Source: a virus. From it: 64,000 nt of DNA. Made by a program: the position numbers and the translations under genes. The notes below the pieces were generated by a model. It made no database searches and had not been told where the DNA came from. It worked only from the letters and a program-made list of their open reading frames with translations. The stretch lies in the UHGV virus genome UHGV-0066004. One strand, 5' to 3'. This document shows positions 8,490 to 59,785 of this stretch, one piece after another. Every line of letters starts with the position of its first letter. Position 1 is the stretch's first letter.

Positions 8490-8604
8490 ATAAACTTTTC
8501 AAACTCTATGTAACCACTTTAACATTATTTTTTAGTGGTTGTCAAGAACTTTTTTAAAATATTTTTCAGTATCTTAGAAAAGCTCTCGTTTCGTTTCTAT
8601 GTAG

Positions 8605-8640
8605 AACATATTAAAGGGTATCAAACACATTGTCAATACC
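8605..8640 (-). promoter_or_regulatory. sigma70-type promoter reading into tRNA cluster (TTGACA-N17-TAATAT)
   Basis: Minus strand: TTGACA, 17-bp spacer, TAATAT; a second TTGACA-N18-TAAAGT lies about 90 bp downstream. Confidence 0.6.
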
Positions 8641-8654
8641 CTTTTTAAAACTTT

Positions 8655-10070
8655 TTACCAGATATAACGGTCAATCATTACTGCTTTGAGCATTACACTG
8701 ATTGGGTCAAACTTCTCACCACCAAGCAGAGCTTTTAAAGTAGCTGGAGAAAAACCAGATACCATTGCTACACCGTTATCCTTAACAGACACTTCGCAAG
8801 TACCATTACGGTTTGCTAAGTACCAGAATACCAGTTGAGGCATTTCGTATCCAGCTTTTTTGTACTTACTCTGAATTGCTTCAAAGTTTGTACGACCGTT
8901 AGCTCCATCAACCTGATTGAACTCCATATCGGAGAAGATGATAAGCTTACTTGGCATATCTTTCTGAGTCAAGTTGTTTCTTTTACCTGTTTCAAGAATA
9001 CGGTCAAAAGCTGCTTGTAAGTTAGTTGAGCCATATTCAACGTGTCGCATCACCTGACGATGACGGTTTCGTAAATCACCACTCAGTTCGATGAAGTGAG
9101 GGTTTGTTGAATAAACCATCAACTCATTCTTAAAGCAACCTGTATTACGTTCTGCTACATACAATGCAAGTGAAACACCAATATCAAGAGCAGTAATTGA
9201 ACCAAAATTCACCCAAGACATTGAGCTTGAAACATCAGACATACACAAGATGTTTTCACCCTCTGCCATCCAGTTTGGTAGTGCTTTCCACTGCTCATTA
9301 GCAACATCTGCATTACCATACTTAACAGATTTAATTACATCGTATGGGTAAACAGCACCAGCATTAATCTTAGTCTCACCCTTTGATAAGGACTCGATGT
9401 AAGCTTTGTAGCGTTCTCCATCTTTGCGGTTAAACAGTTTTTGGTAACGTGCAGCAGCAAGTGAAGGAATCTTACTGTAGTCAATCTTACCAAACTCATT
9501 AGCAGAGATTTTTTGCTCAACTGTATCAGATAGTGCAGACAACAGTGTGCGGTACTCTTTCTCACTCAAGTTGGCAAACTTGCAGAAACGTTTTACAAAC
9601 TGCTTATGACGTGGTTTGACTCGTGGTAACCACTTAGCCGCCAAACCTGCTGTTGCAGGGTCTAGTAATGCTGCTTCTAGATGTTTGAAGGCATCTGTCT
9701 CGAAACAAGTACCTACGAAGATTTTGAAGTCATCAAAACGACCAAGTTCTGCAATCTTATCCATAATGCGAAGAACCTGCGTAGGCTCTAAAACTTTGTC
9801 TTCAATCGCTTGAAGTAAAACAGTTCTGAAGGCTTTACGCTCACCCATACCTTCTCGTACATCTCGCATATGAAGCAAAATACGAACTGCAACATCAACA
9901 TCCTCACGCAAAGCTTTGTAGAACAGGTCTGGTAAGATTTCTACGTTGCTACGGCTTGAACCAGCAGCTTTGTAAAAGTCTACAAGAGCAGACATTGATG
10001 AAGTATGGTTTACAGCACCATTTTCAGTTCGACCTGCATGAAGGTGCGCATGTTTAAATAATTCGCTCAT
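8655..10070 (-). CDS. von Willebrand factor A (vWA) domain protein, possibly TROVE/Ro-like
   Basis: 471-aa ORF; C-terminal MIDAS-type DxSxS (DVSSSM) and hydrophobic beta strands (LIIFSDMEF); TROVE assignment is a guess. Confidence 0.55.
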   Translation of the reverse strand: MSELFKHAHLHAGRTENGAVNHTSSMSALVDFYKAAGSSRSNVEILPDLFYKALREDVDVAVRILLHMRDVREGMGERKAFRTVLLQAIEDKVLEPTQVLRIMDKIAELGRFDDFKIFVGTCFETDAFKHLEAALLDPATAGLAAKWLPRVKPRHKQFVKRFCKFANLSEKEYRTLLSALSDTVEQKISANEFGKIDYSKIPSLAAARYQKLFNRKDGERYKAYIESLSKGETKINAGAVYPYDVIKSVKYGNADVANEQWKALPNWMAEGENILCMSDVSSSMSWVNFGSITALDIGVSLALYVAERNTGCFKNELMVYSTNPHFIELSGDLRNRHRQVMRHVEYGSTNLQAAFDRILETGKRNNLTQKDMPSKLIIFSDMEFNQVDGANGRTNFEAIQSKYKKAGYEMPQLVFWYLANRNGTCEVSVKDNGVAMVSGFSPATLKALLGGEKFDPISVMLKAVMIDRYIW

Positions 10071-10151: not shown

Positions 10152-10523
10152 TTATTTTTTGAGAGTCGCTACAGCAGAGAACGTTGGTTTGTTATCTGTC
10201 TGAGACTGACCACCATTATCAGGGGTCTTCTTAGTGTCTGCTGCAATCGCTTTCATCTCACCTGCTGAGTGAGTCATGATGGTTTTACCAGCCTCCATCA
10301 TCGACTTCAGGTTTACATCGTCAGTCGTCAAACCGAACTCTGCAAGCTTAGCAGCATCCCTTGTAACAACCGCCTCAAACAACTTTGCAGCAAACTCAGC
10401 AGAATTATCAATGGTCAGTTGAGCTTTTACAAGTGAGCTTTTGTTACGAGAGCCTTTTGGTCTTCCAGATGGGTTTCCAGACTGGCCTTTTTTAAACTGG
10501 CCTTTGTTTGTTCTGTTTTTCAT
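10152..10523 (-). CDS. hypothetical basic protein (GNPSGRPKG N-terminal motif)
   Basis: 123-aa ORF, first gene of minus-strand unit diverging from plus-strand cluster. Confidence 0.5.
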   Translation of the reverse strand: MKNRTNKGQFKKGQSGNPSGRPKGSRNKSSLVKAQLTIDNSAEFAAKLFEAVVTRDAAKLAEFGLTTDDVNLKSMMEAGKTIMTHSAGEMKAIAADTKKTPDNGGQSQTDNKPTFSAVATLKK

Positions 10524-10698
10524 TGGTATGCCTCTTATAAGACCTCTTAAAAGGCTTTTAAGATAAAAGATAGATATCCAGAAAGATATCTGTTTAAATA
10601 GCCTTTTTAGAGGAACCTTTTAAGTTATCTTCTAAGTATTTATAAGCCTACACCTTGTCAAGTACTTTGTCAACAACTTTTTTAACTTGCAATAGTTC

Positions 10699-10727
10699 TT
10701 GACTTGTTGTATGGATTACTGTACCAT
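10699..10727 (+). promoter_or_regulatory. candidate promoter TTGACT-N17-TACCAT
   Basis: Same TTGAC(A/T)-N17-TACCAT architecture recurs at 59757-59785; preceded by conserved CCTTGTCAAGTACTTTGTCAAC element at 10653-10674. Confidence 0.35.
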
Positions 10728-10915
10728 CTTACTTAAAGCTGTAGGTCTGCCTTGTTCTACAAAGGAGACTTAATGAGAAAATCAAATAAACCGAAGAAAG
10801 GTAAGAATACCAATCACTGTAAGGAATCAAAAAGGGTAGAATTAATCTACTATTCATCCTCTGAAATTGGTCTGTACCTGTTCTTTCAAAATTACAGAAG
10901 ACAAGAGGATTATCT

Positions 10916-17964: not shown

Positions 17965-18513
17965 ATGGAAAAAGATAACTTAAAAGAAGTTGAAGGTAAC
18001 TACCTAGTGCTTGACTGGAGTGATATCCGAGAAGCACTCTCCGAAGAAAATCTTGACTGGTTCGAACAAATTATCTTTGCAGTACGGCATAACAGAGAAG
18101 TTGAAAATGGTAAAGAGCCATTAGAAGGAATCTTTGTAGAGAGGTCTTATCCGTTCTATGAAGACACTTTACAAAAAGTTAAAATGTACTTTAAACAGAA
18201 GAACCGTAAAGTGGTCACTATGGTATCTCTTGGTGGACAGAGTATGTCTGTGATGGAAGATATCAACCCTAAGAGACCGAGTAAAGGTGTTTGTATAAAA
18301 ATCACAGGACATGAAGAGTATATCTCAGTGGCTGACTTTAGTGCATTCTGTAGTGGTTCTTGTGTCTTTAATGGTTTTCACTATGATATCCGAGTGTACC
18401 CAATCAAGGGAGATGATATCATGATGCAGATATTCGATAACAACAATGGATTCACTCATTTTTATCAGACAACTAAGCCATCCCTAAAAACAGTTCTGGA
18501 AACACTGATTTAA
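17965..18513 (+). CDS. hypothetical protein
   Basis: Start set to first ATG after upstream stop (MEKDNL). Confidence 0.45.
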   Translation: MEKDNLKEVEGNYLVLDWSDIREALSEENLDWFEQIIFAVRHNREVENGKEPLEGIFVERSYPFYEDTLQKVKMYFKQKNRKVVTMVSLGGQSMSVMEDINPKRPSKGVCIKITGHEEYISVADFSAFCSGSCVFNGFHYDIRVYPIKGDDIMMQIFDNNNGFTHFYQTTKPSLKTVLETLI

Positions 18514-18524
18514 AATATCTTAAG

Positions 18525-18552
18525 AGCCTCCTTAATTGGGGGCTTTTTAATT
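18525..18552 (+). terminator. intrinsic terminator ending the plus-strand cluster
   Basis: AGCCTCC-ttaatt-GGGGGCT stem followed by TTTTTAATTTTT. Confidence 0.6.
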
Positions 18553-19159
18553 TTTATAAAATTTTATCGGTTGTCCCAACCTCTGGGTCACCATCATATG
18601 TGAATAAAATATCTACCCTTCTTAACAACCTTCTTAATCTTACTCTCTATATAGTTATATAGTACTATATAGTATCTTAGTAACTATCTAGTGGTCTTAA
18701 TAGCCCTCTGTATAGCCCTTCTAAATAGCCATCTAAACACTCTTCTAACAAACCTTCTTAACAATCTATACAATCACCTTAACCATCTCTCTACATCCTC
18801 TTAGAAGCTCCTATACACCTCTTAATCTCTATGTTAGCTATGTTACTCTCTATAGGTGTTCACTAGGAAATACTAAGCCTCTATATAGACTGTTTTAACA
18901 AACTTAACAGGAATATCTTTACAGGCCTTATCTCACAAGGTCTAACACGGTACTAACAAGGTATCTTATAAGCCTGTTTCTACCTGTATTTTTAAAAGAC
19001 TGTATAGGTAATTATTCAGAATTTTAAAATTTTTATAAAATAGGACTATCAAGTCATTTTTTAGGGTCTTTGAAGGAACTGAAAAATATCTGTAGAAGAT
19101 GTATATCTGCTTGGTAGCCCTTAACAGCTCCCTTACAAGTACTTTGCAAAATTTTAAAA

Positions 19160-19400
19160 TATCCTTAACAATCTCTTAACAGCTCTCACATCTTCTTAAC
19201 AACTCTTCAAAGGTCTTAACAGACTCTTAACAGAACTAACAAGGGTGTAACAGTTTCTTAACAGTTGATACATAGGCTTAACAGAATCTTAACAGATGAC
19301 TAACAAGAGCTAACAAGTTAATTTTAAAGAGTTATTTTGTTAAGATAATTAACAAGTTTCTAACAAGTGTTTAATCTTTTTAACAAGCTATTAACACGGT
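19160..19400. repeat. dense cluster of CTTAACA(G/A) / CTAACAAG iteron-like words
   Basis: More than 15 copies of cttaacag, ctaacaag, ttaacaag within ~240 bp of non-coding DNA. Confidence 0.6.
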
Positions 19401-19668
19401 CACTATCTCTGGTCTTATCGTTCCCTTCTCCTCTTAGTGATTCTTTAAACATACCTCTTAAAAGCTCTCTATAGCTCTTTATAGGCTCTTTTAAGCATCT
19501 TCCTAGTATTTACCCCTCAACTGTATGGATAGCTCTTTATAAGGCTTTACAGGAGCTTTTAAGGCTATGCCAAAGATTCTTACAAGGCTTTTACGTGGTC
19601 TTAACAGAGATTTAACAAGGGGCTAACAAGTTGCTAACAAGTGCCTTAAAAGCATAACTATGTAGGGT

Positions 19669-19720
19669 TTGTTAAGAAATTGTTAAGAAATTGTTAAGAA
19701 AATGTTAAGAAAATGTTAAG
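19669..19720. repeat. tandem 11-12 bp repeat (TTGTTAAGAAA) x ~4.5
   Basis: ttgttaagaaa ttgttaagaaa ttgttaagaaa atgttaagaaaa tgttaag; reverse complement of the CTTAACA word. Confidence 0.8.
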
Positions 19721-20144
19721 GGGGCTAGCATTTACGTAACTTTATAGCCTCTTTTACGTAACTTTTAAGCTACTTTTAAGCCCCTATAACATACTTTTAA
19801 GACAATAACAAGCCCTTTATAGTAGTTCACAAGAATACTAACGAGATGATAAAGCTTACACCCTTATAAGATTCTTTTAAGGCTCTGGGAAGCTCTAGGA
19901 AGGGCTTTTTAGAGTGGGTTAATATGATTGCTTAAGTTAGGTTGATAAGGCTGTTATAGAGCTTTATAGAGCGTTTTAGTGGTTGCCCTTCCCTTTCGGG
20001 TTATGGGCTTACATTTAAGGGAAAGATTAAGTTGATTTGATAAAAGGCTATAGAGTAGACTATAGAGTTATTGCTTTTTAAGGTCTGGTAAAGTTCTGAC
20101 TTGTTAGGTGGGTTTTAAGATTCTGGAAAGGAATTTGATAGACG

Positions 20145-21065: not shown

Positions 21066-21284
21066 TTTGACTCTCCTAGTTTAAGGATTTTATTTAGTGG
21101 GGAGGGATGACCTCCCGTTGATTAGTAATTTACTTGTTTTGATAGCTGATTGCAAGCAATTTTTTAAGCTTATCTATAAAGAATCTTTTAAGTGAATCCC
21201 TTTTAGATAAACCCCCTCGAACAAAGTTACCAATGTCAAGGGGTATTGTCAACACTTTTTTAAAAGTTTTTTATAAGTTATTGA
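21066..21284 (-). promoter_or_regulatory. type A-like leader plus extra intergenic sequence
   Basis: Variant hairpin GGGAGGTCATCCCTCCCC and AGGAGAG SD. Confidence 0.45.
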
Positions 21285-21626: not shown

Positions 21627-21717
21627 TTTTGAATCTCCTAGTTTAAGGACTTTACTTAGTGGGGAAGGTCATTCCCTCCCCGTTGATTGACAATTTACAG
21701 ACTTTTATCAGGCTTGT
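21627..21717 (-). promoter_or_regulatory. type A promoter-leader cassette
   Basis: Near-identical to cassette at 20456-20534. Confidence 0.55.
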
Positions 21718-21951
21718 CTAGTCTTTTTCAATGATAATTTCATATTGACCGTCAACGCTGTCAAAATAGATGCCGTCTTCATCTTCTGTCTTAAAGTAGC
21801 ATTGTATATCATCACTTGCGGGATAGTCTTGCCGTGCTATCTGGCAAGCTTGAATAGCGTTTTCTTTACTTCCTGTGAACTCCTCAAGCCCTTTAAAATC
21901 ACATGAATGGCCATTACAAATTGAGAGGATGAGATAAATGGTTGTAAGCAT
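21718..21951 (-). CDS. small secreted or membrane-anchored protein
   Basis: 77 aa, hydrophobic N-terminus MLTTIYLILSICNG, four Cys. Confidence 0.5.
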   Translation of the reverse strand: MLTTIYLILSICNGHSCDFKGLEEFTGSKENAIQACQIARQDYPASDDIQCYFKTEDEDGIYFDSVDGQYEIIIEKD

Positions 21952-22014
21952 GATTTAAGCCCTCTAAATGGCCCTGTATGGGCCTTAAGTTGGAAATTAG
22001 TGTCTTTGTACTGC

Positions 22015-22581
22015 TTAGTCTAAAAAGTCGCTTAGATTGCGCTCTGTGAGATTCTCGGTAATTTTATCCAGCAGGTCACAAAACAAAGAAGAAGTATCCC
22101 CGCTATTCTGTACAATTTTTGCAATACTCAACAAATCATCGTCAATATAGCCCAAATTGCGGTTAGTTGTATCAGGTACAAAGAATGGCGCATACATTGC
22201 ACTAAATTTCGTCGAGTGAATACCGATAATCCAATCTTTATCAAAGTAACCGGTAAAGCTGGCGATTTCGCTCATGTTGTCACAAGAATAATCGTCCTCA
22301 AGTTCTTCCTCTGGGATATCCATCTCAATTACAATCACTTCCTGCGTTTCCATTTGGAAAGCTGCCGTAATAAGCCCCGACTCTAAAGCGTTTTGAATGC
22401 AGCGTTCACGGATGTAAGAGGCTTCTTCATCTTCCAGGCATTCCGTCTTGATAATCTTATCCATCGGGTAAACGTAAAAACAATCATCCATGTAAGAGCA
22501 GTTCCAGATACCTTCCGGCTTGTCGCCACCTTTAAGCAGGTTTACAAAGTTTTTCAGAGTAGTGCCGTGATAGCATTTCAT
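22015..22581 (-). CDS. early protein with N-terminal YHGT motif (possible ADP-ribosyltransferase or Tpt1-like fold)
   Basis: N-terminus MKCYHGTTLKNFVNLLKGG resembles the NAD-binding HGT segment of KptA/Tpt1; type B leader upstream. Confidence 0.3.
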   Translation of the reverse strand: MKCYHGTTLKNFVNLLKGGDKPEGIWNCSYMDDCFYVYPMDKIIKTECLEDEEASYIRERCIQNALESGLITAAFQMETQEVIVIEMDIPEEELEDDYSCDNMSEIASFTGYFDKDWIIGIHSTKFSAMYAPFFVPDTTNRNLGYIDDDLLSIAKIVQNSGDTSSLFCDLLDKITENLTERNLSDFLD

Positions 22582-22668
22582 TTTTGAATCTCCTAGTTTA
22601 AGGATTTAGTGGTAAAGCTCTTTATCTGGGGCTTACTTTATCGAACTATAAGCCCCTTGTAAAGTACT
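22582..22668 (-). promoter_or_regulatory. type B promoter-leader cassette
   Basis: Conserved GGGGCTTA-N13-TAAGCCCC inverted repeat overlapping TTTACA-N17-TAAAGT, then AGGAGATTC SD. Confidence 0.55.
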
Positions 22669-22872
22669 TTATTTGTTATTTTTGACAACTTTTAAAACTG
22701 CAAGATAACCTAAGCAATAAGAATCACCGAAGAGAGTCCTACCCATGAAAGAATCCTCTGCAATATCTTTCGCCGTGACGGTTTTTTCTACGCCGTGAAA
22801 GAGAACTACATCACCAACTTTAATATCTTTGATGTGTGTAGTTTCAATGGTTAAGCCGTTAATAATAGCCAT
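22669..22872 (-). CDS. small early-type protein
   Basis: 67-aa ORF with type A leader. Confidence 0.5.
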   Translation of the reverse strand: MAIINGLTIETTHIKDIKVGDVVLFHGVEKTVTAKDIAEDSFMGRTLFGDSYCLGYLAVLKVVKNNK

Positions 22873-22972
22873 TTTGAATCTCCTAGTTTAAGGACTTTAC
22901 TTAGTGGGGAAGGTCATTCCCTCCCCGTTGATGTGTAATTTAATCTATCTAAAAACCAGTGTCAACAGTTTT
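22873..22972 (-). promoter_or_regulatory. type A cassette with explicit TTGACA-N17-TAAATT promoter (22937-22965)
   Basis: Minus strand TTGACActggtttttagatagatTAAATT then 5' hairpin leader. Confidence 0.6.
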
Positions 22973-23377
22973 TTAGAGTTCTGCATAAATTGCGTCACAG
23001 ATATCACGGAAGTCGTGATTTGATAGGTTACGTTGTAACCAAGTGGCGAAAAAGTCAGCGATTGCATAATTGGCATCGTAGTCAACTGATAGCCACACTT
23101 TTACGGCGAATCTGAACATTTTTAAATCAAGCTCTTTATTCATTACCTTAGATTTGCCCAACATGTCGACCATTTCATATTGTGCGCCGTCTAGCGTGAT
23201 ACCTGCTGCAACGTCAGCCAATGAGCTTTTTACGTTTTCAATGTCTAAGATAACACTTTGAATCTTTCCGATAATGTTGTGCAATGTCTCATCAGGTGCT
23301 GATGACGTGATAACATTAATCCGGTTAACGGTCAAACGTGCTTTTAAGATTGATAACTCACGGTTGTTAATAGCCAT
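22973..23377 (-). CDS. early-type protein
   Basis: 134-aa ORF with type B leader. Confidence 0.55.
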   Translation of the reverse strand: MAINNRELSILKARLTVNRINVITSSAPDETLHNIIGKIQSVILDIENVKSSLADVAAGITLDGAQYEMVDMLGKSKVMNKELDLKMFRFAVKVWLSVDYDANYAIADFFATWLQRNLSNHDFRDICDAIYAEL

Positions 23378-23463
23378 TTTAGAATCTCCAATTTAGGATT
23401 TAGTGGTAAAGCTCTTTATCTGGGGCTTACTTTATCGAACTATAAGCCCCCTGTAAAGTACTT
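23378..23463 (-). promoter_or_regulatory. type B promoter-leader cassette
   Basis: Same inverted-repeat element as 22582-22668. Confidence 0.55.
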
Positions 23464-23736
23464 TTACACTAAATGCAGCTTTTTACCTTTTACCATGATG
23501 TAACTCGATGCGCTATTGCTACAAACATCTTGATAAATTCTGCGCAAACGTCCTTCGTAGTGTACTTTCCAACTAGTTGGAATCTTTTTACCATATCCGG
23601 TAGCAGTTTTTTGGAGTCCTGCTACTTGCCAATCTAAGATATGTTGCTCAGCTTGTAAATCCTCAAAGCACATTACACCATCTACATAGTGACGTAAAGT
23701 TACATTTAAAGTGCGACCGTTGTTAGTAGTATACAT
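23464..23736 (-). CDS. small early-type protein
   Basis: 90-aa ORF with type A leader. Confidence 0.5.
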   Translation of the reverse strand: MYTTNNGRTLNVTLRHYVDGVMCFEDLQAEQHILDWQVAGLQKTATGYGKKIPTSWKVHYEGRLRRIYQDVCSNSASSYIMVKGKKLHLV

Positions 23737-23826
23737 TTTTGAATCACCTAGTTTAAGGACTTTATTTAGTGGGGAAGGTCATTCCCTCCCCGTTGATGTG
23801 TAATTTAATCTATCTAAAAACCAGTG
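23737..23826 (-). promoter_or_regulatory. type A cassette with TTGACA-N17-TAAATT promoter
   Basis: Near-identical to 22873-22972. Confidence 0.6.
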
Positions 23827-24159
23827 TCAAGAATTTTGTTTTCGTTTGCTCAATTCTTGAACAATTACAGCGTAGTAGTCTTTTAAGTCAATGATATTTA
23901 AAGCATTTATCAGAGAATTATAATCATCAACTAACTGGAAATCATCTTTGAAGATGTCACTTATCTGATAGGTTTTCGCTTTATATCTGAAGCTCATCTC
24001 TAGCCGCTTTATTTGCTCATCACTGAGACGCCCTAGAAAGCTTTCTACAAGGTTATTGCTAACCTGCTGTGTGATTGCCTTATTTGCTAGATTATAGGCT
24101 TTATATGCCTTATAGAGCGCGAGAATGGCAATGATTGCAGTGATGCCAGTCATTAACAT
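23827..24159 (-). CDS. small membrane protein
   Basis: 110 aa, N-terminal TM helix ITAIIAILALYKAY. Confidence 0.5.
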   Translation of the reverse strand: MLMTGITAIIAILALYKAYKAYNLANKAITQQVSNNLVESFLGRLSDEQIKRLEMSFRYKAKTYQISDIFKDDFQLVDDYNSLINALNIIDLKDYYAVIVQELSKRKQNS

Positions 24160-24449
24160 GGTGTTTCCTCTTTACGTGATACTTTGCCATTTACAGATAT
24201 CTCATAAGAATCTAGCAAATCACTTTTAGACTTTACTGGACTTTTAAAAGTATCATCATAAATATTTACTTGCAATACAGGTTTTTTGTACTCCCTGCAG
24301 CTATTCCATAAGCAAATCACTACGCGACGGCCTTTGATTTTTCCGTGTAACCATTCCATAACATCGTGGCTATTTCTTGATGTCTCGATAAAATCAATTT
24401 TGTTGAGTAACTTGCTTAGATTTTCACGGACTTTATTTGACAATTTCAT
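24153..24449 (-). CDS. small early-type protein
   Basis: 98-aa ORF with type B leader. Confidence 0.5.
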   Translation of the reverse strand: MKLSNKVRENLSKLLNKIDFIETSRNSHDVMEWLHGKIKGRRVVICLWNSCREYKKPVLQVNIYDDTFKSPVKSKSDLLDSYEISVNGKVSRKEETPC

Positions 24450-24537
24450 TTTTGAATCTCCAGTTTAGGATTTAGTGGTAAAGCTCTTTATCTGGGGCTT
24501 AAGATATCAACTTTTAAGCCCCCTGTAAAGTACTTTA
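24450..24537 (-). promoter_or_regulatory. type B promoter-leader cassette
   Basis: GGGGCTTA...TAAGCCCC element. Confidence 0.5.
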
Positions 24538-24828
24538 TCAGTTAATTTTCAGTTTTGCATAGCCTCTGATTGTTCGAATGGGGGAGGTTAAGGCCACGCG
24601 TTTGATATATGATTTTTTAGTGTATACGTTTGTTTTACCGAGTGTTTCCACACCTTTAAAAAGGTTATTTGAACTGCGTTTCAAGGTTAAATGTTTATCA
24701 ACCTTTACGCCCCATCTTACAGCAGACTGTTTTCCGTTGTCAACCACTTTCCCGCATAACTTTTTAGCCATGATACGAGCGTCATCACGAGTCTTTGCGG
24801 TAATTACAACGTTTTTGATAATAGCCAT
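24538..24828 (-). CDS. small basic early-type protein
   Basis: Start set to ATG at 24828 (MAIIKNV) adjacent to type B leader. Confidence 0.5.
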   Translation of the reverse strand: MAIIKNVVITAKTRDDARIMAKKLCGKVVDNGKQSAVRWGVKVDKHLTLKRSSNNLFKGVETLGKTNVYTKKSYIKRVALTSPIRTIRGYAKLKIN

Positions 24829-24914
24829 TTTTAAGTTCTCCAATTTAGGATTTAGTGGTAAAGCTCTTTATCTGGGGCTTACTTTATCGAACTATAAGCC
24901 CCTTGTAAAGTACT
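24829..24914 (-). promoter_or_regulatory. type B promoter-leader cassette
   Basis: GGGGCTTA...TAAGCCCC element. Confidence 0.5.
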
Positions 24915-25298
24915 TTATTTGTTAATTTTGAAGATAGTTACATAACCATCGCTGCCGATGATTTGTGATGCTCCAGCTTTTTCTACTTGATAGCCCATAT
25001 TTTCAAGATGGTAAACAGCATCATCATAACCATATGCGCCGCCCTGATAACGTCTCTTATCACATCTTACTAATACCTTTCCACGTCCTGCCAGTGCATT
25101 TAGTACGGCTTTTTCACTTGAAAGTGTACCATCTAACATGGTTGCCGTGTAATGGTTGATTCTATTCCCGTTTACATCATACTTAAAATTGAATGCGTGA
25201 ACAACGATAATGTTACCTTTAAAATTTTCATCAAGTGACTTCTCCAGTGCGTTGCGAAAGTTGTCTTTGTTGATGAATTTAGGTGCACGATATGCCAT
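24915..25298 (-). CDS. early-type protein
   Basis: 127-aa ORF with type B-variant leader. Confidence 0.55.
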   Translation of the reverse strand: MAYRAPKFINKDNFRNALEKSLDENFKGNIIVVHAFNFKYDVNGNRINHYTATMLDGTLSSEKAVLNALAGRGKVLVRCDKRRYQGGAYGYDDAVYHLENMGYQVEKAGASQIIGSDGYVTIFKINK

Positions 25299-25388
25299 TT
25301 TTGAATCTCCTAGTTTAAGGGTTAATTTGGTAAAGCTCTTTATCTGGGGCTTACTTTATCGAACTATAAGCCCCTTGTAAAGTACTTT
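25299..25388 (-). promoter_or_regulatory. type B-variant promoter-leader cassette
   Basis: GGGGCTTA...TAAGCCCC element with altered SD-proximal part. Confidence 0.5.
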
Positions 25389-25610
25389 TTATTTATCGTA
25401 GTAGTAAATTGCTGTCTGTCTCGTAAATTTTTTAGTATTTCTTGTAAGGTAGCAATTAGAGTTTATAGCTGTTTCTACATAGTTGCAATAGTCAGCTTCT
25501 GATATTCTGGACCATACGCCACAGATTTGCATGTAAAAACGTTTTGCCTTTGTGTTAACGTTAGTTGTAACCATCAATTCGCGACTGTAAAGCATTATTT
25601 CGCGCTCCAT
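25389..25610 (-). CDS. small early-type protein
   Basis: 73-aa ORF; start may be the internal ATG at 25595. Confidence 0.45.
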   Translation of the reverse strand: MEREIMLYSRELMVTTNVNTKAKRFYMQICGVWSRISEADYCNYVETAINSNCYLTRNTKKFTRQTAIYYYDK

Positions 25611-25783
25611 TTCTCAAAGAGTTCAGCAGGGAAACGTTCGCTATACCCTTTTAAGGAAAAAGTATTATCTTTGTGGATAGCTTCCACCTGATAAACCTTA
25701 TAAGAGCGTATAGTTAGCATTTTGTAAGAGTATTCGTGCTTAATGTTAACCTCATCGCCAACTTTAATTTTTCTTGATGCCAT
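25595..25783 (-). CDS. small early-type protein
   Basis: 62-aa ORF with type A leader. Confidence 0.5.
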   Translation of the reverse strand: MASRKIKVGDEVNIKHEYSYKMLTIRSYKVYQVEAIHKDNTFSLKGYSERFPAELFEKWSAK

Positions 25784-25850
25784 TTTTGAATCTCCAGTTT
25801 AGGATTTTATTTAGTGGGGAAGGTCATTCCCTCCCCGTTGATGTAAATAT
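25784..25850 (-). promoter_or_regulatory. type A leader (first of array)
   Basis: GGGGAGGGAATGACCTTCCCC hairpin and AGGAGATTC SD. Confidence 0.5.
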
Positions 25851-26039
25851 TAGATAACCACGTTCAAAGAGTCAATAAAAATTTTAAAAATATTTTTGGC
25901 AAAACTGTAATGAAACGGGTGCGCACGACTACCACAAAACAGAACGCAAATCAAGAATTATTTTTCAATCCGCTACAAATTTTTCTCTTGACTTTTGGGG
26001 AGAGGAAGAGGGGGAGAGGGGTTGGGCTGGCTGTCTATA

Positions 26040-39965: not shown

Positions 39966-40119
39966 TTTAACTTGCCTCTCAACTCACAATAAGAGAGTCC
40001 TAAAAAGAACCCTAGTAAGACAGAACCTATGAACAACCCAATAATACTCTCTGCCATATATAACATCCAATAAAAAAGGTGATGTAAGCCTATCAAGACC
40101 CACATCACCTTGTCAAGTT

Positions 40120-56265: not shown

Positions 56266-56441
56266 GTAAGCCTCTTTTAAGTAACTATTAAGTTTTAATC
56301 TTTTATCTTAACGTATTCTATACGTTATACTTTAAAGCTTTTTAAAAGCTATTAAATAATCTTTTAAGAGCTTTAAAGTATCTGTATAGTTAAACTGTTA
56401 AGTAACCTTTTAAGTAAAAACCCACTTCGCAAAGATTAACA

Positions 56442-56477
56442 CCTTGTCAAGTACATTGTCAACTTGCTTTTTATAAT
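56442..56477 (+). promoter_or_regulatory. conserved CCTTGTCAAGTACATTGTCAAC element plus TATAAT upstream of polymerase
   Basis: Near-identical 22-bp element also at 10653-10674; spacing to TATAAT is not canonical for sigma70. Confidence 0.4.
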
Positions 56478-56522
56478 TTTTTGCAGTAATGTATGAGGTT
56501 AATGATTTTAGAGGGAGTAAAA

Positions 56523-59222
56523 ATGGAAAACGTAGATTTTAAAAACTTACATTTAGTTGGTGATACAGAAACTGATGGTTTACTCCTTGAGTTCACTAAA
56601 GTTCACGTAATGGCCTTTGCAGACTATAAATCTGACGATGAAGAGCCACCTGTATGGGTCTTTACAGATGAGCCTATCCTCGGTCACAAGTACACTAAGT
56701 ACATTAAGGGTGGTTTACGTGAAGGTATTGAGTTTGCGTTGAAGGCAAAACGACTTTGTATCCATAATGGTCTCGGTTATGACTGGTGGGTTTTCAATCA
56801 CATTGCACCGGATTTATGGAACTTTGATAATCCAAAATGTAAGCCGTGGAGTAATTTCTTTCAGGACTCTCTTATCCAGTCTCGTGTTCAGTGGATGGAT
56901 AGACCAACTCCAAAGGGTTATAAAGGTGCTCATGGTTTGGCTGCATGGGGTGCTCGTGTTGGTGTTCGTAAACCAGAGATTGAACATTGGGGTGTGTGGA
57001 ATGCAGAAATCTTCACTCGTGTTGTAGAAGATATCCGTATTAACGCCAAAACTAAACGGGCGCTTGATAACGAGTATCTCAAGCTTAAGAAGTGTGGTAT
57101 AGACACTTATGAAACTTACATGCGAGCTAAAGAGACATCTTTCTGGATGAGCCAACAAGCTATTAATGGCTGGAAAGCTGATAAAGAGCTTATGGAGTTC
57201 CATGTAAAGGAGCTTGACAAGTTGACTAATGAGCTTGCTTCAGAGGTTGAACCACATCTACCTCCAACTATTAAGACCAAAGGTAAAGTCACTGGAGAGG
57301 AGTTTGCAAAAGCTTGGAATGAGTATGTTGAAACATTTGGTCATGCAGATGGACTGAAGAGAATTACCAAGTACCCTAAGACAAAGTATCGTCAGCAGGT
57401 ACGTAATGGCGAGATGCAGACATACGAAATCAAACCATTTGGTAAGCCAACTACAAAGATTTTTAACATTGAGAAAAGGAATTGCTATACACCAACCAAC
57501 ACTGTAACTGGTGAAGAGTACAAGGAAGGCTTTGTAGCAATGAAGGATGCTCGTGCAATTTGCAATGAGTTGAACGCAAAGATTGGTAAGAAATGCAAAG
57601 ACTGGAAGCCAGTAAAAACAGTCAAAACTGTGAAGTACTATAACAGCCACGTTGTTAACCACTTTGAACTTGAGTCAAGTCGCTACACAGGTTTGATTGA
57701 TGCACCATATACACCAATTGAGTTCGAGGTTTCTCGTATGACTCAGGTAGCAGTTGTTAAAGACTACTTGAAATCAGTTGGTTGGATTCCAGATGACTGG
57801 AACTACAAGAAAGACTCAGATGGTCGTCCTGTCAAAGTTTGTCGTTTCAAAGACAATAAAAAGATGATTACAAAACATCCTAAGTGGCAGGAAATGGTTG
57901 AGCGGTGTGGTTTGAGTTATGTTGAACATGAAGGTGTCCAGTACATTGAGCATAACTGGTCTGTGAAGAAATACACAGATTTGCTTGAGCCTTGCTTAAT
58001 CCGTACTTCACCAAAACTTACCGAATCATCCTATGATACGATTGAAGGTGAGCTTGGACAGAAGATTGCGAAATACTACACTTTGATGCACAGACGCAGA
58101 ACTATTGAGAACTCAAAGGATGATGAAAAAGGTTGGTTGAACCAGATTCGTCCTGATGGTCGCCTTAGTGCTGGTGCAATGGTGTTTGGTACTTCAACTG
58201 GACGTATGACGCAATATGGTATTGTAAACGTACCGTCTGGTGCTGCTGTCTATGGGGAACCAATGAGGGCAGTGTGGATTTGTGAGGAAGGTACTAACGT
58301 TGTCTCTGTAGACATGAACTCAGCCCAGCTAGTTCTCCTTTGTAACTTTATGGGTGATAAAGATTTCACCAAAGCGGTAACGCAAGGTAAAGAAGAAATT
58401 GAGTTTACTCGTCAAGAAGATGGACGCTATTACTGCAAACATTTTGATGAGTACCTCAACCCAGAGATTGATAAGTACCTTCGCTATGACTCTGAGAATG
58501 ACCTGTACGTTGTCTATTCAGGGACTGATGCGCATACACTGAACAGTATCTACTTTAGCTTGAACGATGAGCAGGACATCTTGACTTGTCGAGCTACTCA
58601 GGATGAGAATCTTCTCCATGAGATTAGCAAGGGTCGTAAGAAAGCTAAGAATGGTATCTATGCACTGCTGTTCGGTGCAGGTGATGAGAAGTTTGCTAAG
58701 ACGATTAAAGCTGCAACTACTCAGGAAGGAGCACTGACTAAACAGACTTACTTTATTCGTTTGCCTAAAATTAAGAAGCTGCTAGATGACTTGGAAGCTG
58801 ACTACAAAGCAACTAAAAAGGCACTTGAAGAGGTGTTTGGTAAGACTGCTGCAATCTCTAAAGGGGGTTTTGTAAAGGTTGCTGGAGCTTGGTTGTGGTG
58901 TAAATCTCCACATAAGTTATTGAATTATTTGCTCATGGGTTCGGAAAGTCAGATTCAGAACGAGGCAATTAACCTTGCTTGCCGTCGTATGATTGACGAA
59001 GGTTTGATGAAGTTGAACGGTCGCAAACCAGCTATAGGTGCTCGTTTATTGTGCTCCTATCACGACGAGACAAGTTGGGAATGCCCAGAGAGTATGACGG
59101 CAGAGGTGAAGGCTGTCACTGATTGGTATTACGGGCAAGCCTCTAAGAACTTAGGGCTAAAGAGTGAAACACTGGTAACTGGTACTGGTAAGGTTGGTAA
59201 ATCGTGGTTGGAAGTGCATTAA
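56523..59222 (+). CDS. DNA polymerase, family A (T7 gp5-like)
   Basis: Exo motif DTETDG, HNGLGYDW, and segments paralleling T7 gp5 (AHGLAAWG, APYTPIEF, KSVGWIPD); start set to ATG after GAGGGAG. Confidence 0.85.
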   Translation: MENVDFKNLHLVGDTETDGLLLEFTKVHVMAFADYKSDDEEPPVWVFTDEPILGHKYTKYIKGGLREGIEFALKAKRLCIHNGLGYDWWVFNHIAPDLWNFDNPKCKPWSNFFQDSLIQSRVQWMDRPTPKGYKGAHGLAAWGARVGVRKPEIEHWGVWNAEIFTRVVEDIRINAKTKRALDNEYLKLKKCGIDTYETYMRAKETSFWMSQQAINGWKADKELMEFHVKELDKLTNELASEVEPHLPPTIKTKGKVTGEEFAKAWNEYVETFGHADGLKRITKYPKTKYRQQVRNGEMQTYEIKPFGKPTTKIFNIEKRNCYTPTNTVTGEEYKEGFVAMKDARAICNELNAKIGKKCKDWKPVKTVKTVKYYNSHVVNHFELESSRYTGLIDAPYTPIEFEVSRMTQVAVVKDYLKSVGWIPDDWNYKKDSDGRPVKVCRFKDNKKMITKHPKWQEMVERCGLSYVEHEGVQYIEHNWSVKKYTDLLEPCLIRTSPKLTESSYDTIEGELGQKIAKYYTLMHRRRTIENSKDDEKGWLNQIRPDGRLSAGAMVFGTSTGRMTQYGIVNVPSGAAVYGEPMRAVWICEEGTNVVSVDMNSAQLVLLCNFMGDKDFTKAVTQGKEEIEFTRQEDGRYYCKHFDEYLNPEIDKYLRYDSENDLYVVYSGTDAHTLNSIYFSLNDEQDILTCRATQDENLLHEISKGRKKAKNGIYALLFGAGDEKFAKTIKAATTQEGALTKQTYFIRLPKIKKLLDDLEADYKATKKALEEVFGKTAAISKGGFVKVAGAWLWCKSPHKLLNYLLMGSESQIQNEAINLACRRMIDEGLMKLNGRKPAIGARLLCSYHDETSWECPESMTAEVKAVTDWYYGQASKNLGLKSETLVTGTGKVGKSWLEVH

Positions 59223-59232
59223 TGGTGACAAA

Positions 59233-59760
59233 ATGATTACACAAGAACGTTTAAAGGAACTACTACACTATGACCCCGAAACAGGGGTCTTTACTTGGCT
59301 TCGTAGAGAGGGTGACTCAAGGGCTGTTAAAGTCTTTAATAGTAAGTACGCAGGACAGGTAGCGGGGAGCATCCAGATTGACTCAACTGGTCATAAGCAG
59401 ATTACTATCTATTTTGACAAGAAAGCACATAAAGCACACAGACTTGCATGGCTGTACGTGTATGGTAGGCTACCGAAAGGTGTTATTGACCATATTAATG
59501 GGGACTCCCTTGATAACAGGGTTGTAAACTTAAGAGAAGCAGATGACTGCCAAAGTGCTTGGAATAAAAGCAAGTTATCTACCAATAAATCAGGCTATAA
59601 GGGTGTAAGCCTGAAGAAGAAGTCTGGTAGGTGGGTTGCGCAAATAAGCTATAAAGGTAAAAAGATATCATTAGGTTACTATGACACACCAGAAGAAGCC
59701 CATAAAGCTTACTGTGAAGCTGCTATTAAACTCCACGGAGAGTTTGCAAAACTAAGTTGA
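59233..59760 (+). CDS. HNH/AP2-type homing endonuclease
   Basis: Paralog of 49118..49618; 33-bp identical nucleotide stretch in inverted orientation. Confidence 0.7.
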   Translation: MITQERLKELLHYDPETGVFTWLRREGDSRAVKVFNSKYAGQVAGSIQIDSTGHKQITIYFDKKAHKAHRLAWLYVYGRLPKGVIDHINGDSLDNRVVNLREADDCQSAWNKSKLSTNKSGYKGVSLKKKSGRWVAQISYKGKKISLGYYDTPEEAHKAYCEAAIKLHGEFAKLS

Positions 59761-59785
59761 CAAGGTGCTCAGGGAAGAGTACCAT
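59757..59785 (+). promoter_or_regulatory. candidate promoter TTGACA-N17-TACCAT
   Basis: Same architecture as 10699-10727. Confidence 0.35.

What the first reader, a model, noticed from the sequence alone, without database searches (positions are those of the whole stretch)
10653..10727. Conserved CCTTGTCAAGTAC(A/T)TTGTCAAC element heading two plus-strand operons
The near-identical 22-bp sequence, with tandem TTGTCAA half-sites, occurs at 10653-10674 and 56442-56463. In both places it precedes the first gene of a plus-strand unit, and its spacing to the nearest -10 is not canonical for sigma70. It may be a binding site for a phage-encoded activator or sigma factor that times middle expression. 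TTGAC(A/T)-N17-TACCAT promoters at 10699 and 59757 may belong to the same class.
Basis: seen in the sequence. Interest (0 to 1): 0.5.

Follow-up and report, generated by a model that had tools for sequence, protein, structure and literature searches.

The report
Leftward double -35 promoter core
The repeated 22-base element is real and conserved, but it is best read on the opposite strand, where it forms the core of two ordinary host-type (sigma-70) promoters of a Felix O1-like phage; each carries an unexplained, conserved second TTGACA box.

Summary
Observation confirmed. CCTTGTCAAGTAC(T/A)TTGTCAAC sits at 10653-10674 and 56442-56463 (0 expected by chance). The shared stretch is 25 bp (ACACC...).

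The window is a Felixounavirus. Complete genomes listed in the search hold two copies, one in each divergent intergenic region (Felix O1 genes 40|41 and 96|97).

TTGTCAA is the reverse complement of TTGACAA, so the minus strand reads:
- A-tract
- TTGACA
- 6 nt
- TTGACA
- AGGTG(T)
- TAGGCT (site 1, 17-bp spacer from the first TTGACA) or TAATCT (site 2, 18-bp spacer, TGn before it)

The A-tract/TTGACA context matches several of the phage's other sigma-70-like promoters. In all the Ounavirinae lineages examined, the distal (or only) TTGACA has TAnnnT at 16-18 bp, and the proximal one never does. So the element heads the two minus-strand units. The plus-strand promoters lie back-to-back with it.

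What remains unexplained is the second TTGACA inside the spacer:
- It is invariant, while the 6-nt linker takes 8 forms at site 2.
- Its offset is 10-13 bp, depending on lineage.
- It recurs at a third promoter (21224-21252).
- It always goes with a weak -10.

No transcription start data exist. Ordinary kind, modestly unusual variant.

The parts
10650..10674 (-). Site 1 copy of the shared 25-bp element. Minus strand reads G-TTGACA-AAGTAC-TTGACA-AGGTGT.
10668..10673 (-). Site 1 distal TTGACA, the predicted -35 hexamer of the leftward promoter.
   Evidence: 17-bp spacer to TAGGCT. The Felix O1 paper used the same hexamer for its predicted P41.
10656..10661 (-). Site 1 proximal TTGACA, inside the spacer. 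It is conserved, has no -10 partner, and its function is unresolved.
10645..10650 (-). Site 1 predicted -10 hexamer TAGGCT, with TG immediately upstream. Predicted transcription start near 10638.
   Evidence: The same position reads TAGCCT in SUSP1 and Moogle, and TAAGTT in L032.
10675..10686 (-). Site 1 A-tract (GTTAAAAAAGTT) just upstream of the -35, UP-element-like. On the + strand it is the CTTTTTTAAC tail that follows the 22-mer.
10524..10638 (-). Predicted 115-nt leader of the gene 41-like (DUF5681) transcript. It is rich in CTTTTAAG/CTTAAAAG motifs and folds into a long hairpin.
56439..56463 (-). Site 2 copy of the shared 25-bp element. Minus strand reads G-TTGACA-ATGTAC-TTGACA-AGGTGT.
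56457..56462 (-). Site 2 distal TTGACA, the predicted -35 hexamer.
   Evidence: 18-bp spacer to TAATCT
56445..56450 (-). Site 2 proximal TTGACA, inside the spacer.
56433..56441 (-). Site 2 extended -10, TGT-TAATCT. Predicted transcription start near 56426.
   Evidence: Reads TGG-TAGTCT in Michonne and TGT-TAGTCT in L233.
56463..56475 (-). Site 2 A-tract (TATAAAAAGCAAG) upstream of the -35. The same bases form the -35 (TTGCTT) of the plus-strand DNA polymerase promoter.
56266..56426 (-). Predicted 161-nt leader of the gp104-like transcript, which folds into a long hairpin.
21224..21266 (-). Third double -35 promoter: AAAAAAGTG-TTGACA-ATACCCC-TTGACA-TTGG-TAACTT. It lies between two minus-strand genes, so it is not in a divergent region.
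   Evidence: Also present in wV8.
10667..10696 (+). Candidate plus-strand promoter at site 1: TTGTCA-N18-TGc-AATAGT. It would reuse the right half-site as its -35.
   Evidence: TGnAATnnT is kept in SUSP1, Moogle and L032. There is no counterpart at site 2.
10699..10727 (+). Plus-strand promoter TTGACT-N17-TACCAT for the gene 40-like unit.
   Evidence: Identical in Suspvirus and Mooglevirus, with one spacer base different in L032. The homologous promoter in Yersinia phage P778 is TTGACA-N17-TATCGT.
56464..56492 (+). Candidate plus-strand DNA polymerase promoter TTGCTT-N17-TAATGT, abutting the element back-to-back.
   Evidence: TAGGGT and TAGTGT occupy the same position in Mooglevirus.
59757..59785 (+). 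Promoter TTGACAAGGTG...-N17-TACCAT downstream of the DNA polymerase gene and the HNH gene. It shares the 11-mer TTGACAAGGTG with the proximal hexamer of the element.
40087..40116 (-). Promoter-like site TTGACAAGGTG...-N18-TAGGCT, sharing the same 11-mer.

Best explanation
The 22-mer is the core of two host sigma-70-type promoters that fire leftwards (minus strand of the window).

Read on the minus strand, each copy is:
- an A-tract resembling a proximal UP element
- a perfect -35 hexamer TTGACA
- a 6-nt linker
- a second perfect TTGACA
- AGGTG(T)
- a weak -10 hexamer: TAGGCT at site 1 (17-bp spacer) or TGT-TAATCT at site 2 (18-bp spacer, extended -10)

Transcription should start near 10638 and 56426. 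The two starts would drive the gene 41-like/tRNA/structural unit and the gp104-like replication and nucleotide-metabolism unit.

The plus-strand promoters sit back-to-back on the same DNA. At site 2, the plus-strand -35 (TTGCTT) is the upstream A-tract region of the minus-strand promoter. At site 1, the right half-site may serve as a -35 in both directions. Polymerase bound in one direction should therefore exclude the other.

Shown:
- sequence anatomy
- strand-consistent conservation
- selection on both hexamers

Inferred:
- that host RNA polymerase uses these sites
- the start positions
- mutual exclusion

The second TTGACA is under selection but unexplained. My best guess is a second docking site for sigma-70 region 4. 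It would tune capture of polymerase at these weak -10 promoters. The direction of the effect is unknown.
For: (1) A scan of intergenic DNA for TTGACA (at most 1 mismatch)-N16-18-TAnnnT finds 29 sites, nearly all pointing with the local unit. Several share the context AAAAAG(T)T(G/C)-TTGACA (8545, 62294, 21260). Both copies of the element fit this context on the minus strand only.

(2) In 17 junction sequences, from Felixounavirus, Suspvirus, Mooglevirus, L032, LPML1-like, Hafnia, Pectobacterium, Kolesnikvirus and Yersinia phages, the distal or only TTGACA always has TAnnnT at 16-18 bp. The proximal one never does. The same holds in 30 of 31 further site-2 loci; the most divergent locus (L245) has a lone TTGACA with no partner.

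(3) Erwinia phages have the two TTGACA 34 bp apart. The upstream one has TAGAAT or TAAAAT at 16 bp. The downstream one has only TTTAAT at 17 bp, which is not of the TAnnnT form. P778, Arno162 and SE5 have a single TTGACA with N17 TAAAGT, TAGGCT and TACATT.

(4) The left flank ACACC is GGTGT, which supplies the TG of an extended -10 at site 2.

(5) A third tandem TTGACA promoter lies between two co-directional minus-strand genes, so the design needs no plus-strand gene.

(6) Tandem TTGACA pairs: 3 in the window against 0.12 expected, all on the sense strand of the downstream unit.

(7) The Felix O1 paper already predicted P41 from the same distal hexamer. The ASO1A record annotates a minus-strand promoter spanning window ~10635-10661, i.e. 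using the proximal TTGACA.
Against: No transcription start mapping exists for any Ounavirinae phage in the searched literature, so promoter use is inferred.

The -10 hexamers match TATAAT at only 3 of 6 positions. The tool's standard consensus scan therefore did not list these promoters.

At site 1 the TG abuts the -10 rather than sitting one base away.

The model does not by itself explain why a second perfect TTGACA is kept in the spacer.

Crude RT-PCR in Felix O1 puts ORFs 41, 42, 96 and 97 at maximal expression at 25 min. This leaves room for an additional factor.
Confidence: 0.75

Rival explanations
1. The pair of TTGACA boxes is also an operator. A phage DNA-binding protein would bind both hexamers and switch the three double -35 promoters on or off together. 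One candidate is the 99-aa HTH_3 protein encoded in the DNA polymerase operon just beyond the window's right end. This would give temporal control on top of the sigma-70 promoter.
For: Both hexamers are invariant while the linker varies: 8 linker forms at site 2 and 6 at site 1.

The same architecture occurs at three promoters, all with weak -10 hexamers.

The HTH_3 protein (Pfam 39.7 bits, plus a sub-threshold Sigma70_r4 hit) is found only in Felixounavirus, Mooglevirus and Suspvirus. These are the genera with the 12-bp arrangement at both junctions.

Felix O1 RT-PCR places the flanking genes in the 25-min class.
Against: Tandem TTGACA also occurs in the LPML1-like (11-bp offset) and Hafnia (10-bp offset) phages, where no homologue of that protein was detected.

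The offset ranges from 10 to 13 bp, which is hard to reconcile with one rigid dimer.

The only invariant bases are exactly the sigma-70 -35 consensus.

No binding data exist.
Confidence: 0.2
2. On the plus strand, the two TTGTCAA repeats would bind a tandem activator in place of a -35. This would turn on plus-strand promoters whose -10 lies 9 bp downstream: TAACTT at 10683-10688 and TATAAT at 56472-56477. The activator could be a phage protein, or host PhoB, whose Pho box has the same TGTCA core.
For: In this window both sites show [TTGTCAA-N5-TTGTCAA]-N9-TAnnnT. The total of 28 bp from the first repeat to the -10 equals the Pho-box geometry as I recall it (7+4+7+10). The Pho-box consensus is from memory and was not tested.
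Against: The putative -10 hexamers are not kept outside Felixounavirus:
- SUSP1 site 1: TCAGTT
- Moogle site 1: TTAGTT
- Michonne site 2: TGAAGA
- Silverhawkium site 2: TCAAAA
- L233 site 2: TGTGTC

The repeat period is 12 bp, not the 11 bp of Pho boxes, and it ranges from 10 to 13 bp.

The third tandem site has no plus-strand gene to serve.

The T-run that creates these hexamers is explained as the A-tract of the minus-strand promoter.
Confidence: 0.07
3. The half-sites are variants of the TGTTAAG iterons that fill the terminal-repeat region (18.6-19.7 kb). They would bind the same (unknown) protein, linking the junctions to replication or packaging rather than to transcription.
For: TGTCAAG differs from the iteron TGTTAAG by one base. 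One exact CTGTTAAG and several CTTTTAAG copies lie in the leaders next to the element, some paired at 12-bp spacing.
Against: None of the 19 exact iteron copies in 18.6-19.7 kb carries the C, and no TGTCAAG occurs in that region.

The C is exactly what makes TTGACA on the other strand, and it is invariant in every lineage.
Confidence: 0.03

Closest known systems
Predicted promoter P41 of phage Felix O1 (Whichard et al. 2010, PMC3185647) and the 'promoter' features in the vB_EcoM_ASO1A record
   Same: Same locus and strand as site 1. P41 is written TTGACA(N15)TATAGG and uses the distal hexamer. The ASO1A feature is a minus-strand promoter overlapping the element and uses the proximal hexamer.
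   Different: The paper states that no other sigma-70-like sequence was found in the 40-41 or 96-97 regions, so site 2 was missed. The -10 I propose is 2 bp further downstream and is the register kept across genera. The double -35 design and the third copy were not described.
E. coli sigma-70 promoters with a consensus -35 and a proximal UP-element subsite, including extended -10 (TGn) promoters
   Same: Perfect TTGACA, 17/18-bp spacer, TAnnnT -10, an A-tract at about -45 to -40, and TGn at site 2.
   Different: A second perfect TTGACA occupies about -24 to -18 of the spacer and is conserved. I know of no described role for such a hexamer. That is from memory; the one literature search that touched on it returned nothing I followed up.
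Back-to-back divergent promoter pairs and bidirectional promoters of bacteria (for example PMC12825309)
   Same: Two promoters fire in opposite directions from one short region, with expected mutual exclusion of polymerase.
   Different: As far as I recall (only the abstract was seen), bidirectional promoters described in E. coli share a symmetrical -10 region. Here the -35 regions abut or overlap, and the -10 hexamers are about 50 bp apart at site 2.
Pho box (PhoB binding site) and the lambda CII TTGC-N6-TTGC site
   Same: Direct repeats straddling the -35 region, and a TGTCA core identical to that of Pho boxes.
   Different: Period is 12 bp (10-13 across lineages) instead of 11 or 10. The required same-strand -10 is not conserved. 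The conserved hexamer is the sigma-70 -35 on the other strand.

Membership tests
sigma-70-dependent promoter (minus strand) | -35 hexamer close to TTGACA | tested here: met
   6/6 at both sites, for both hexamers
sigma-70-dependent promoter (minus strand) | -10 hexamer with A at position 2 and T at position 6, 16-18 bp from the -35 | tested here: met
   TAGGCT at 17 bp and TAATCT at 18 bp from the distal hexamer. Each matches TATAAT at only 3 of 6 positions, so they are weak. They were not listed by the stricter consensus scan.
sigma-70-dependent promoter (minus strand) | Points towards a downstream gene, and the -35/-10 register is conserved in relatives | tested here: met
   17 junction sequences from the lineages examined, plus 30 of 31 further site-2 loci
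sigma-70-dependent promoter (minus strand) | Primary transcript 5' end about 7 nt downstream of the -10, dependent on host RNA polymerase holoenzyme | not testable with these tools
   No transcription start data for Ounavirinae found in the library
UP-element-assisted promoter | A-tract at about -46 to -38 | tested here: met
   TTAAAAAAGTTG and TATAAAAAGCAAG lie directly upstream of the distal TTGACA, as at promoters 8545, 21260 and 62294. The function of the tract was not tested.
Extended -10 promoter | TG one base upstream of the -10 hexamer | tested here: inconclusive
   Met at site 2 (TGT-TAATCT) and at 21224 (TGG-TAACTT). At site 1 the TG abuts the hexamer, and Felix O1 itself lacks it.
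Pho box (PhoB regulon promoter) | Two 7-bp direct repeats (CTGTCAT) with an 11-bp period | tested here: not met
   Period is 12 bp here and 10-13 bp elsewhere. The consensus is recalled from memory.
Pho box (PhoB regulon promoter) | -10 hexamer about 10 bp downstream on the same strand, conserved | tested here: not met
   Present in this window but lost in Suspvirus, Mooglevirus and L233
T4-type middle promoter (MotA/AsiA) | MotA box (a/t)(a/t)TGCTT(t/c)A centred at -30, plus TAnnnT | tested here: not met
   TTGCTTTTT at site 2 sits at the -35 position (17 bp from TAATGT), not at -30, and is absent at site 1.
T4-type middle promoter (MotA/AsiA) | MotA and AsiA homologues encoded by the phage | not tested
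   Only 28 proteins were scanned. The Felix O1 paper reports no polymerase-modifying proteins.
T4-type late promoter | TATAAATA recurring upstream of late genes | tested here: not met
   Only 3 copies in the whole wV8 genome, and the one at site 1 is lost in SUSP1.
Terminal-repeat iterons (TGTTAAG) | Exact heptamer TGTTAAG in phased arrays | tested here: not met
   The half-sites carry C at position 5, which no iteron copy does.

The most novel reading that the evidence does not exclude
Ounavirinae phages have a distinct promoter class: A-tract, TTGACA, a second TTGACA 10-13 bp downstream, and a deliberately weak -10. The second hexamer would be a control point, bound either by a phage early protein or by sigma region 4 in an alternative register. 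It would set the timing of the units that start at the two divergent junctions, and would couple each leftward promoter to its back-to-back rightward partner as a switch.
Probability: 0.2. Interest if true: 0.5.

Novelty: new variant of a known kind. Interest (0 to 1): 0.3.

Why it matters
How Felix O1-like phages time their transcription is unknown. The 2010 genome paper says so explicitly and found no promoter in the 96-97 region. These phages are widely used for Salmonella and E. coli typing and biocontrol.

This work does three things:
- It places likely start points for two of the four major transcription units.
- It shows that these units share one promoter design.
- It names a small, testable oddity, the conserved second -35 box. 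That box could be where temporal control or directional choice is exerted.

If the box proves to be only a tuning element, the finding is ordinary promoter annotation.

Tried and rejected
- **IMG/VR pattern scan.** A scan for TTGTCAA-N4-5-TTGTCAA returned 120 or more apparently unrelated contigs, which were not examined further. It was uninformative at 14 specified bases.
- **Single heptamers.** TTGTCAA (34 found, about 21 expected) is only mildly enriched. Only the tandem form is special.
- **T4-like late promoter.** TATAAATA occurs at site 1 but only 3 times per genome, and it is not conserved.
- **Known RNA families.** Rfam finds only tRNAs in the window.
- **Literature.** No transcriptome or start-site data exist for Felixounavirus or Felix O1.
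- **Candidate regulators.** PHROGs on 20 small early proteins gave one phosphatase, one Rz-like spanin and 18 of unknown function. Pfam on the first genes of each unit gave only DUF5681, DUF2828/DUF7788 and HNH_3+AP2.
- **Proximal TTGACA as the true -35.** Rejected, because no TAnnnT lies at 16-18 bp from it in any lineage.
- **Rejected by eye.** An IHF site (the linker is not conserved), a sigma-54 -24/-12 element (wrong spacing) and a MotA box (wrong position).

Full report
**Observation**

The 22-mer CCTTGTCAAGTAC(T/A)TTGTCAAC is at 10653-10674 and 56442-56463 on the + strand. There is no other match at up to 3 mismatches, and none is expected by chance. A local alignment of the two intergenic regions shows the shared block is 25 bp (ACACC + 22-mer minus 2; 10650-10674 and 56439-56463). 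A loosely shared CTTTTT(T)A tail follows it. Nothing else in the two regions aligns.

**Context**

The window is a Felix O1-like myovirus, 98-99% identical to Felixounavirus genomes. It carries 26 tRNA genes.

Gene layout and the annotated wV8 genome show four transcription units. Both copies lie in the two divergent intergenic regions:
- 10524-10772, between the DUF5681 gene (Felix O1 gene 41) on the minus strand and small genes on the plus strand.
- 56266-56523, between a 140-aa gene on the minus strand and the DNA polymerase gene on the plus strand.

So the element precedes a minus-strand unit just as much as a plus-strand one.

The complete genomes listed in the search hold two copies each. 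One 98-kb record has three, and Suspvirus also has two.

**Strand**

TTGTCAA is the reverse complement of TTGACAA. On the minus strand the two sites read:
- Site 1: GTTAAAAAAGTT-G-TTGACA-AAGTAC-TTGACA-AGGTG-TAGGCT
- Site 2: TATAAAAAGCAAG-TTGACA-ATGTAC-TTGACA-AGGTGT-TAATCT

All coordinates were checked.

The distal TTGACA is 17 bp from TAGGCT at site 1 and 18 bp from TAATCT at site 2. At site 2, TGT precedes the -10, which makes it an extended -10.

I scanned intergenic DNA of the window for TTGACA (at most 1 mismatch)-N16-18-TAnnnT:
- It gave 29 sites, nearly all pointing with the local unit.
- Several share the upstream context AAAAAG(T)T(G/C)-TTGACA, for example at 8545, 21260 and 62294.
- Both copies of the element fit this context on the minus strand only.

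This explains the parts of the repeat that flank the hexamers:
- The CTTTTT(T)A tail is the A-tract of the leftward promoter.
- ACACC is GGTGT, next to the -10.

**Comparative test**

I collected both junctions from GenBank phages and from IMG/VR contigs.

In 17 junction sequences the distal or only TTGACA always has TAnnnT at 16-18 bp, and the proximal one never does. The lineages covered are Felixounavirus, Suspvirus, Mooglevirus, an unnamed lineage (L032/L233), LPML1-like phages, a Hafnia phage, a Pectobacterium phage, Kolesnikvirus and a Yersinia phage. Thirty of 31 further site-2 loci behave the same way; the most divergent one (L245) has a lone TTGACA with no partner.

The -10 hexamers seen at that position are:
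- Site 1: TAGCCT (SUSP1 and Moogle), TAAGTT (L032), TACTCT (LPML1-like), TAAAGT (P778).
- Site 2: TAGTCT (Michonne and L233), TAATGT (Hafnia), TAGGCT (Arno162), TACATT (SE5).

In Erwinia phages the two TTGACA are 34 bp apart. The upstream one has TAGAAT or TAAAAT at 16 bp. The downstream one has only TTTAAT at 17 bp, which is not of the TAnnnT form.

The Felix O1 genome paper predicted P41 from the same distal hexamer. It reported no sigma-70-like sequence in the 96-97 region. The ASO1A record annotates a minus-strand promoter overlapping the element, spanning window ~10635-10661 and so using the proximal TTGACA.

**Plus strand**

The plus-strand promoters lie back-to-back with the element.

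At site 1 there are two candidates:
- TTGTCA-N18-TGc-AATAGT (10667-10696). It reuses the right half-site as its -35.
- TTGACT-N17-TACCAT (10699-10727). It is conserved through Suspvirus, Mooglevirus and L032.

At site 2, TTGCTT-N17-TAATGT (56464-56492) abuts the element. TAGGGT or TAGTGT occupies the same position in Mooglevirus. Other genera show the same back-to-back layout:
- Hafnia: TTGCAA-N17-TACTAT
- Arno162: TTGACC-N17-CATACT
- P778: TTGACA-N17-TATCGT

The distance from the element to the plus-strand -35 differs between the two sites. No plus-strand reading of the element holds at both sites and across genera.

One plus-strand geometry does exist in this window: [TTGTCAA-N5-TTGTCAA]-N9-TAACTT at site 1 and -TATAAT at site 2. 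It resembles Pho-box architecture as I remember it. However, those -10 hexamers are lost in Suspvirus, Mooglevirus and L233, and the repeat period is 12 bp rather than 11.

The promoter at 59757 is real: TTGACA-N17-TACCAT. It shares the 11-mer TTGACAAGGTG with the proximal hexamer of the element, as does a site at 40116. In wV8 the -10 of the 59757 homologue reads TACCTT, so TACCAT does not define a class.

**The unexplained part**

The proximal TTGACA sits in the spacer, at about -24 to -18. It is clearly under selection:
- Within near-identical Felixounavirus site-2 regions the 6-nt linker takes four forms (ATGTAC, ATGCAC, ATACAC, ATGCGC). There are eight forms in all across genera, and six at site 1. 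Both hexamers are invariant throughout.
- The offset is 12 bp in Felixounavirus, Suspvirus and Mooglevirus, 11 bp in LPML1-like phages, and 10 bp in the Hafnia phage.
- The offset is 13 bp at a third promoter of this window, 21224-21252. That promoter lies between two minus-strand genes.
- Tandem TTGACA pairs number 3 in the window against 0.12 expected. wV8 has the same three.
- All double -35 promoters have -10 hexamers matching TATAAT at only 3 of 6 positions. Most single -35 relatives have better ones.

A variable offset and an invariant sigma-70 consensus argue for recognition by sigma region 4 rather than by a rigid dimeric regulator. This is inference.

A 99-aa HTH_3 protein is encoded just beyond the window's right end. 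It occurs only in the three genera with the 12-bp arrangement. Tandem boxes also occur where it is absent.

Felix O1 RT-PCR, which is crude, puts ORFs 41, 42, 96 and 97 at maximal expression at 25 min. No start-site data exist.

**Verdict**

The element is the core of two leftward sigma-70-type promoters in back-to-back divergent promoter regions. The plus-strand, non-sigma-70 interpretation is not supported.

The kind is ordinary, and one copy was already predicted in 2010. The conserved double -35 design with a weak -10 is a modest new variant whose function needs experiments.

Noticed in passing
window 18500-20110: A 1.6-kb ORF-free region packed with iterons. CTTAACA(G/A) occurs about 14 times on one strand (18621-19294, 19600). 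On the other strand there are five tandem copies, four TTGTTAAGAAA(A) and a last ATGTTAAGGGG (TGTTAAG at 11-bp spacing, 19669-19723). The 581-bp direct terminal repeat of phage Pr103Blw maps to 19113-19698, so the physical genome ends lie here. The iterons may serve packaging or replication.
   Followed up: partly
window 10534-10636, 56274-56414, 19457-19881: The octamer CTTTTAAG (or CTTAAAAG) occurs 29 times against 5.5 expected. It clusters in the two junction leaders and in the terminal-repeat region. In the leaders, several related octamers sit about 12 bp apart.
   Followed up: partly
window 10524-10638 and 56266-56426, minus strand: The predicted 5' leaders of both leftward transcripts fold into long hairpins (-28.4 and -36.6 kcal/mol; z -2.9 and -3.75). 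At site 1 the hairpin pairs with the AAGAGG region near the start codon. This may indicate translational or RNA-level control.
   Followed up: partly
window 21224-21266, minus strand: A third double -35 promoter (TTGACA-ATACCCC-TTGACA-TTGG-TAACTT), upstream of a 176-aa gene of unknown function. It is conserved in wV8.
   Followed up: yes
window 59194-59760: An HNH_3 + AP2 homing-endonuclease gene lies directly after the DNA polymerase gene and is absent from wV8. Its stop codon lies inside the -35 hexamer of the 59757 promoter.
   Followed up: partly
window 21700-25900, minus strand: Two families of near-identical strong promoters repeat before the small early genes. These are TTTACA-N17-TAAAGT-AAGCCCCAGATA and TTGACA-CTGGTTTTTAGATAGAT-TAAATT. 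They correspond to the direct repeats annotated in wV8 and Felix O1, and lie next to one genome end.
   Followed up: no
window 8608-8644, minus strand: A promoter (TTGACA-N17-TAATAT) is embedded in a 12-bp-stem hairpin (AAAGGGTATTGACAATGTGTTTGATACCCTTT). The Felix O1 paper lists this hairpin as terminators on both strands (t42 and t43).
   Followed up: no
wV8 58319-58618 (L011:13319-13618, minus), about 150-450 bp beyond the window's right end: A 99-aa HTH_3 (Cro/C1-type) protein is encoded in the DNA polymerase operon. It is found only in Felixounavirus, Mooglevirus and Suspvirus.
   Followed up: partly
window 10152-10523 and 8655-10070, minus strand: The first two genes of the leftward unit at site 1 are a DUF5681 protein with an invariant KGxSGNPxGRPxGSRNK motif and a DUF2828/DUF7788 protein annotated as 'RNA-binding protein'. 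Neither has a known role, and Felix O1 has no identified small terminase.
   Followed up: no
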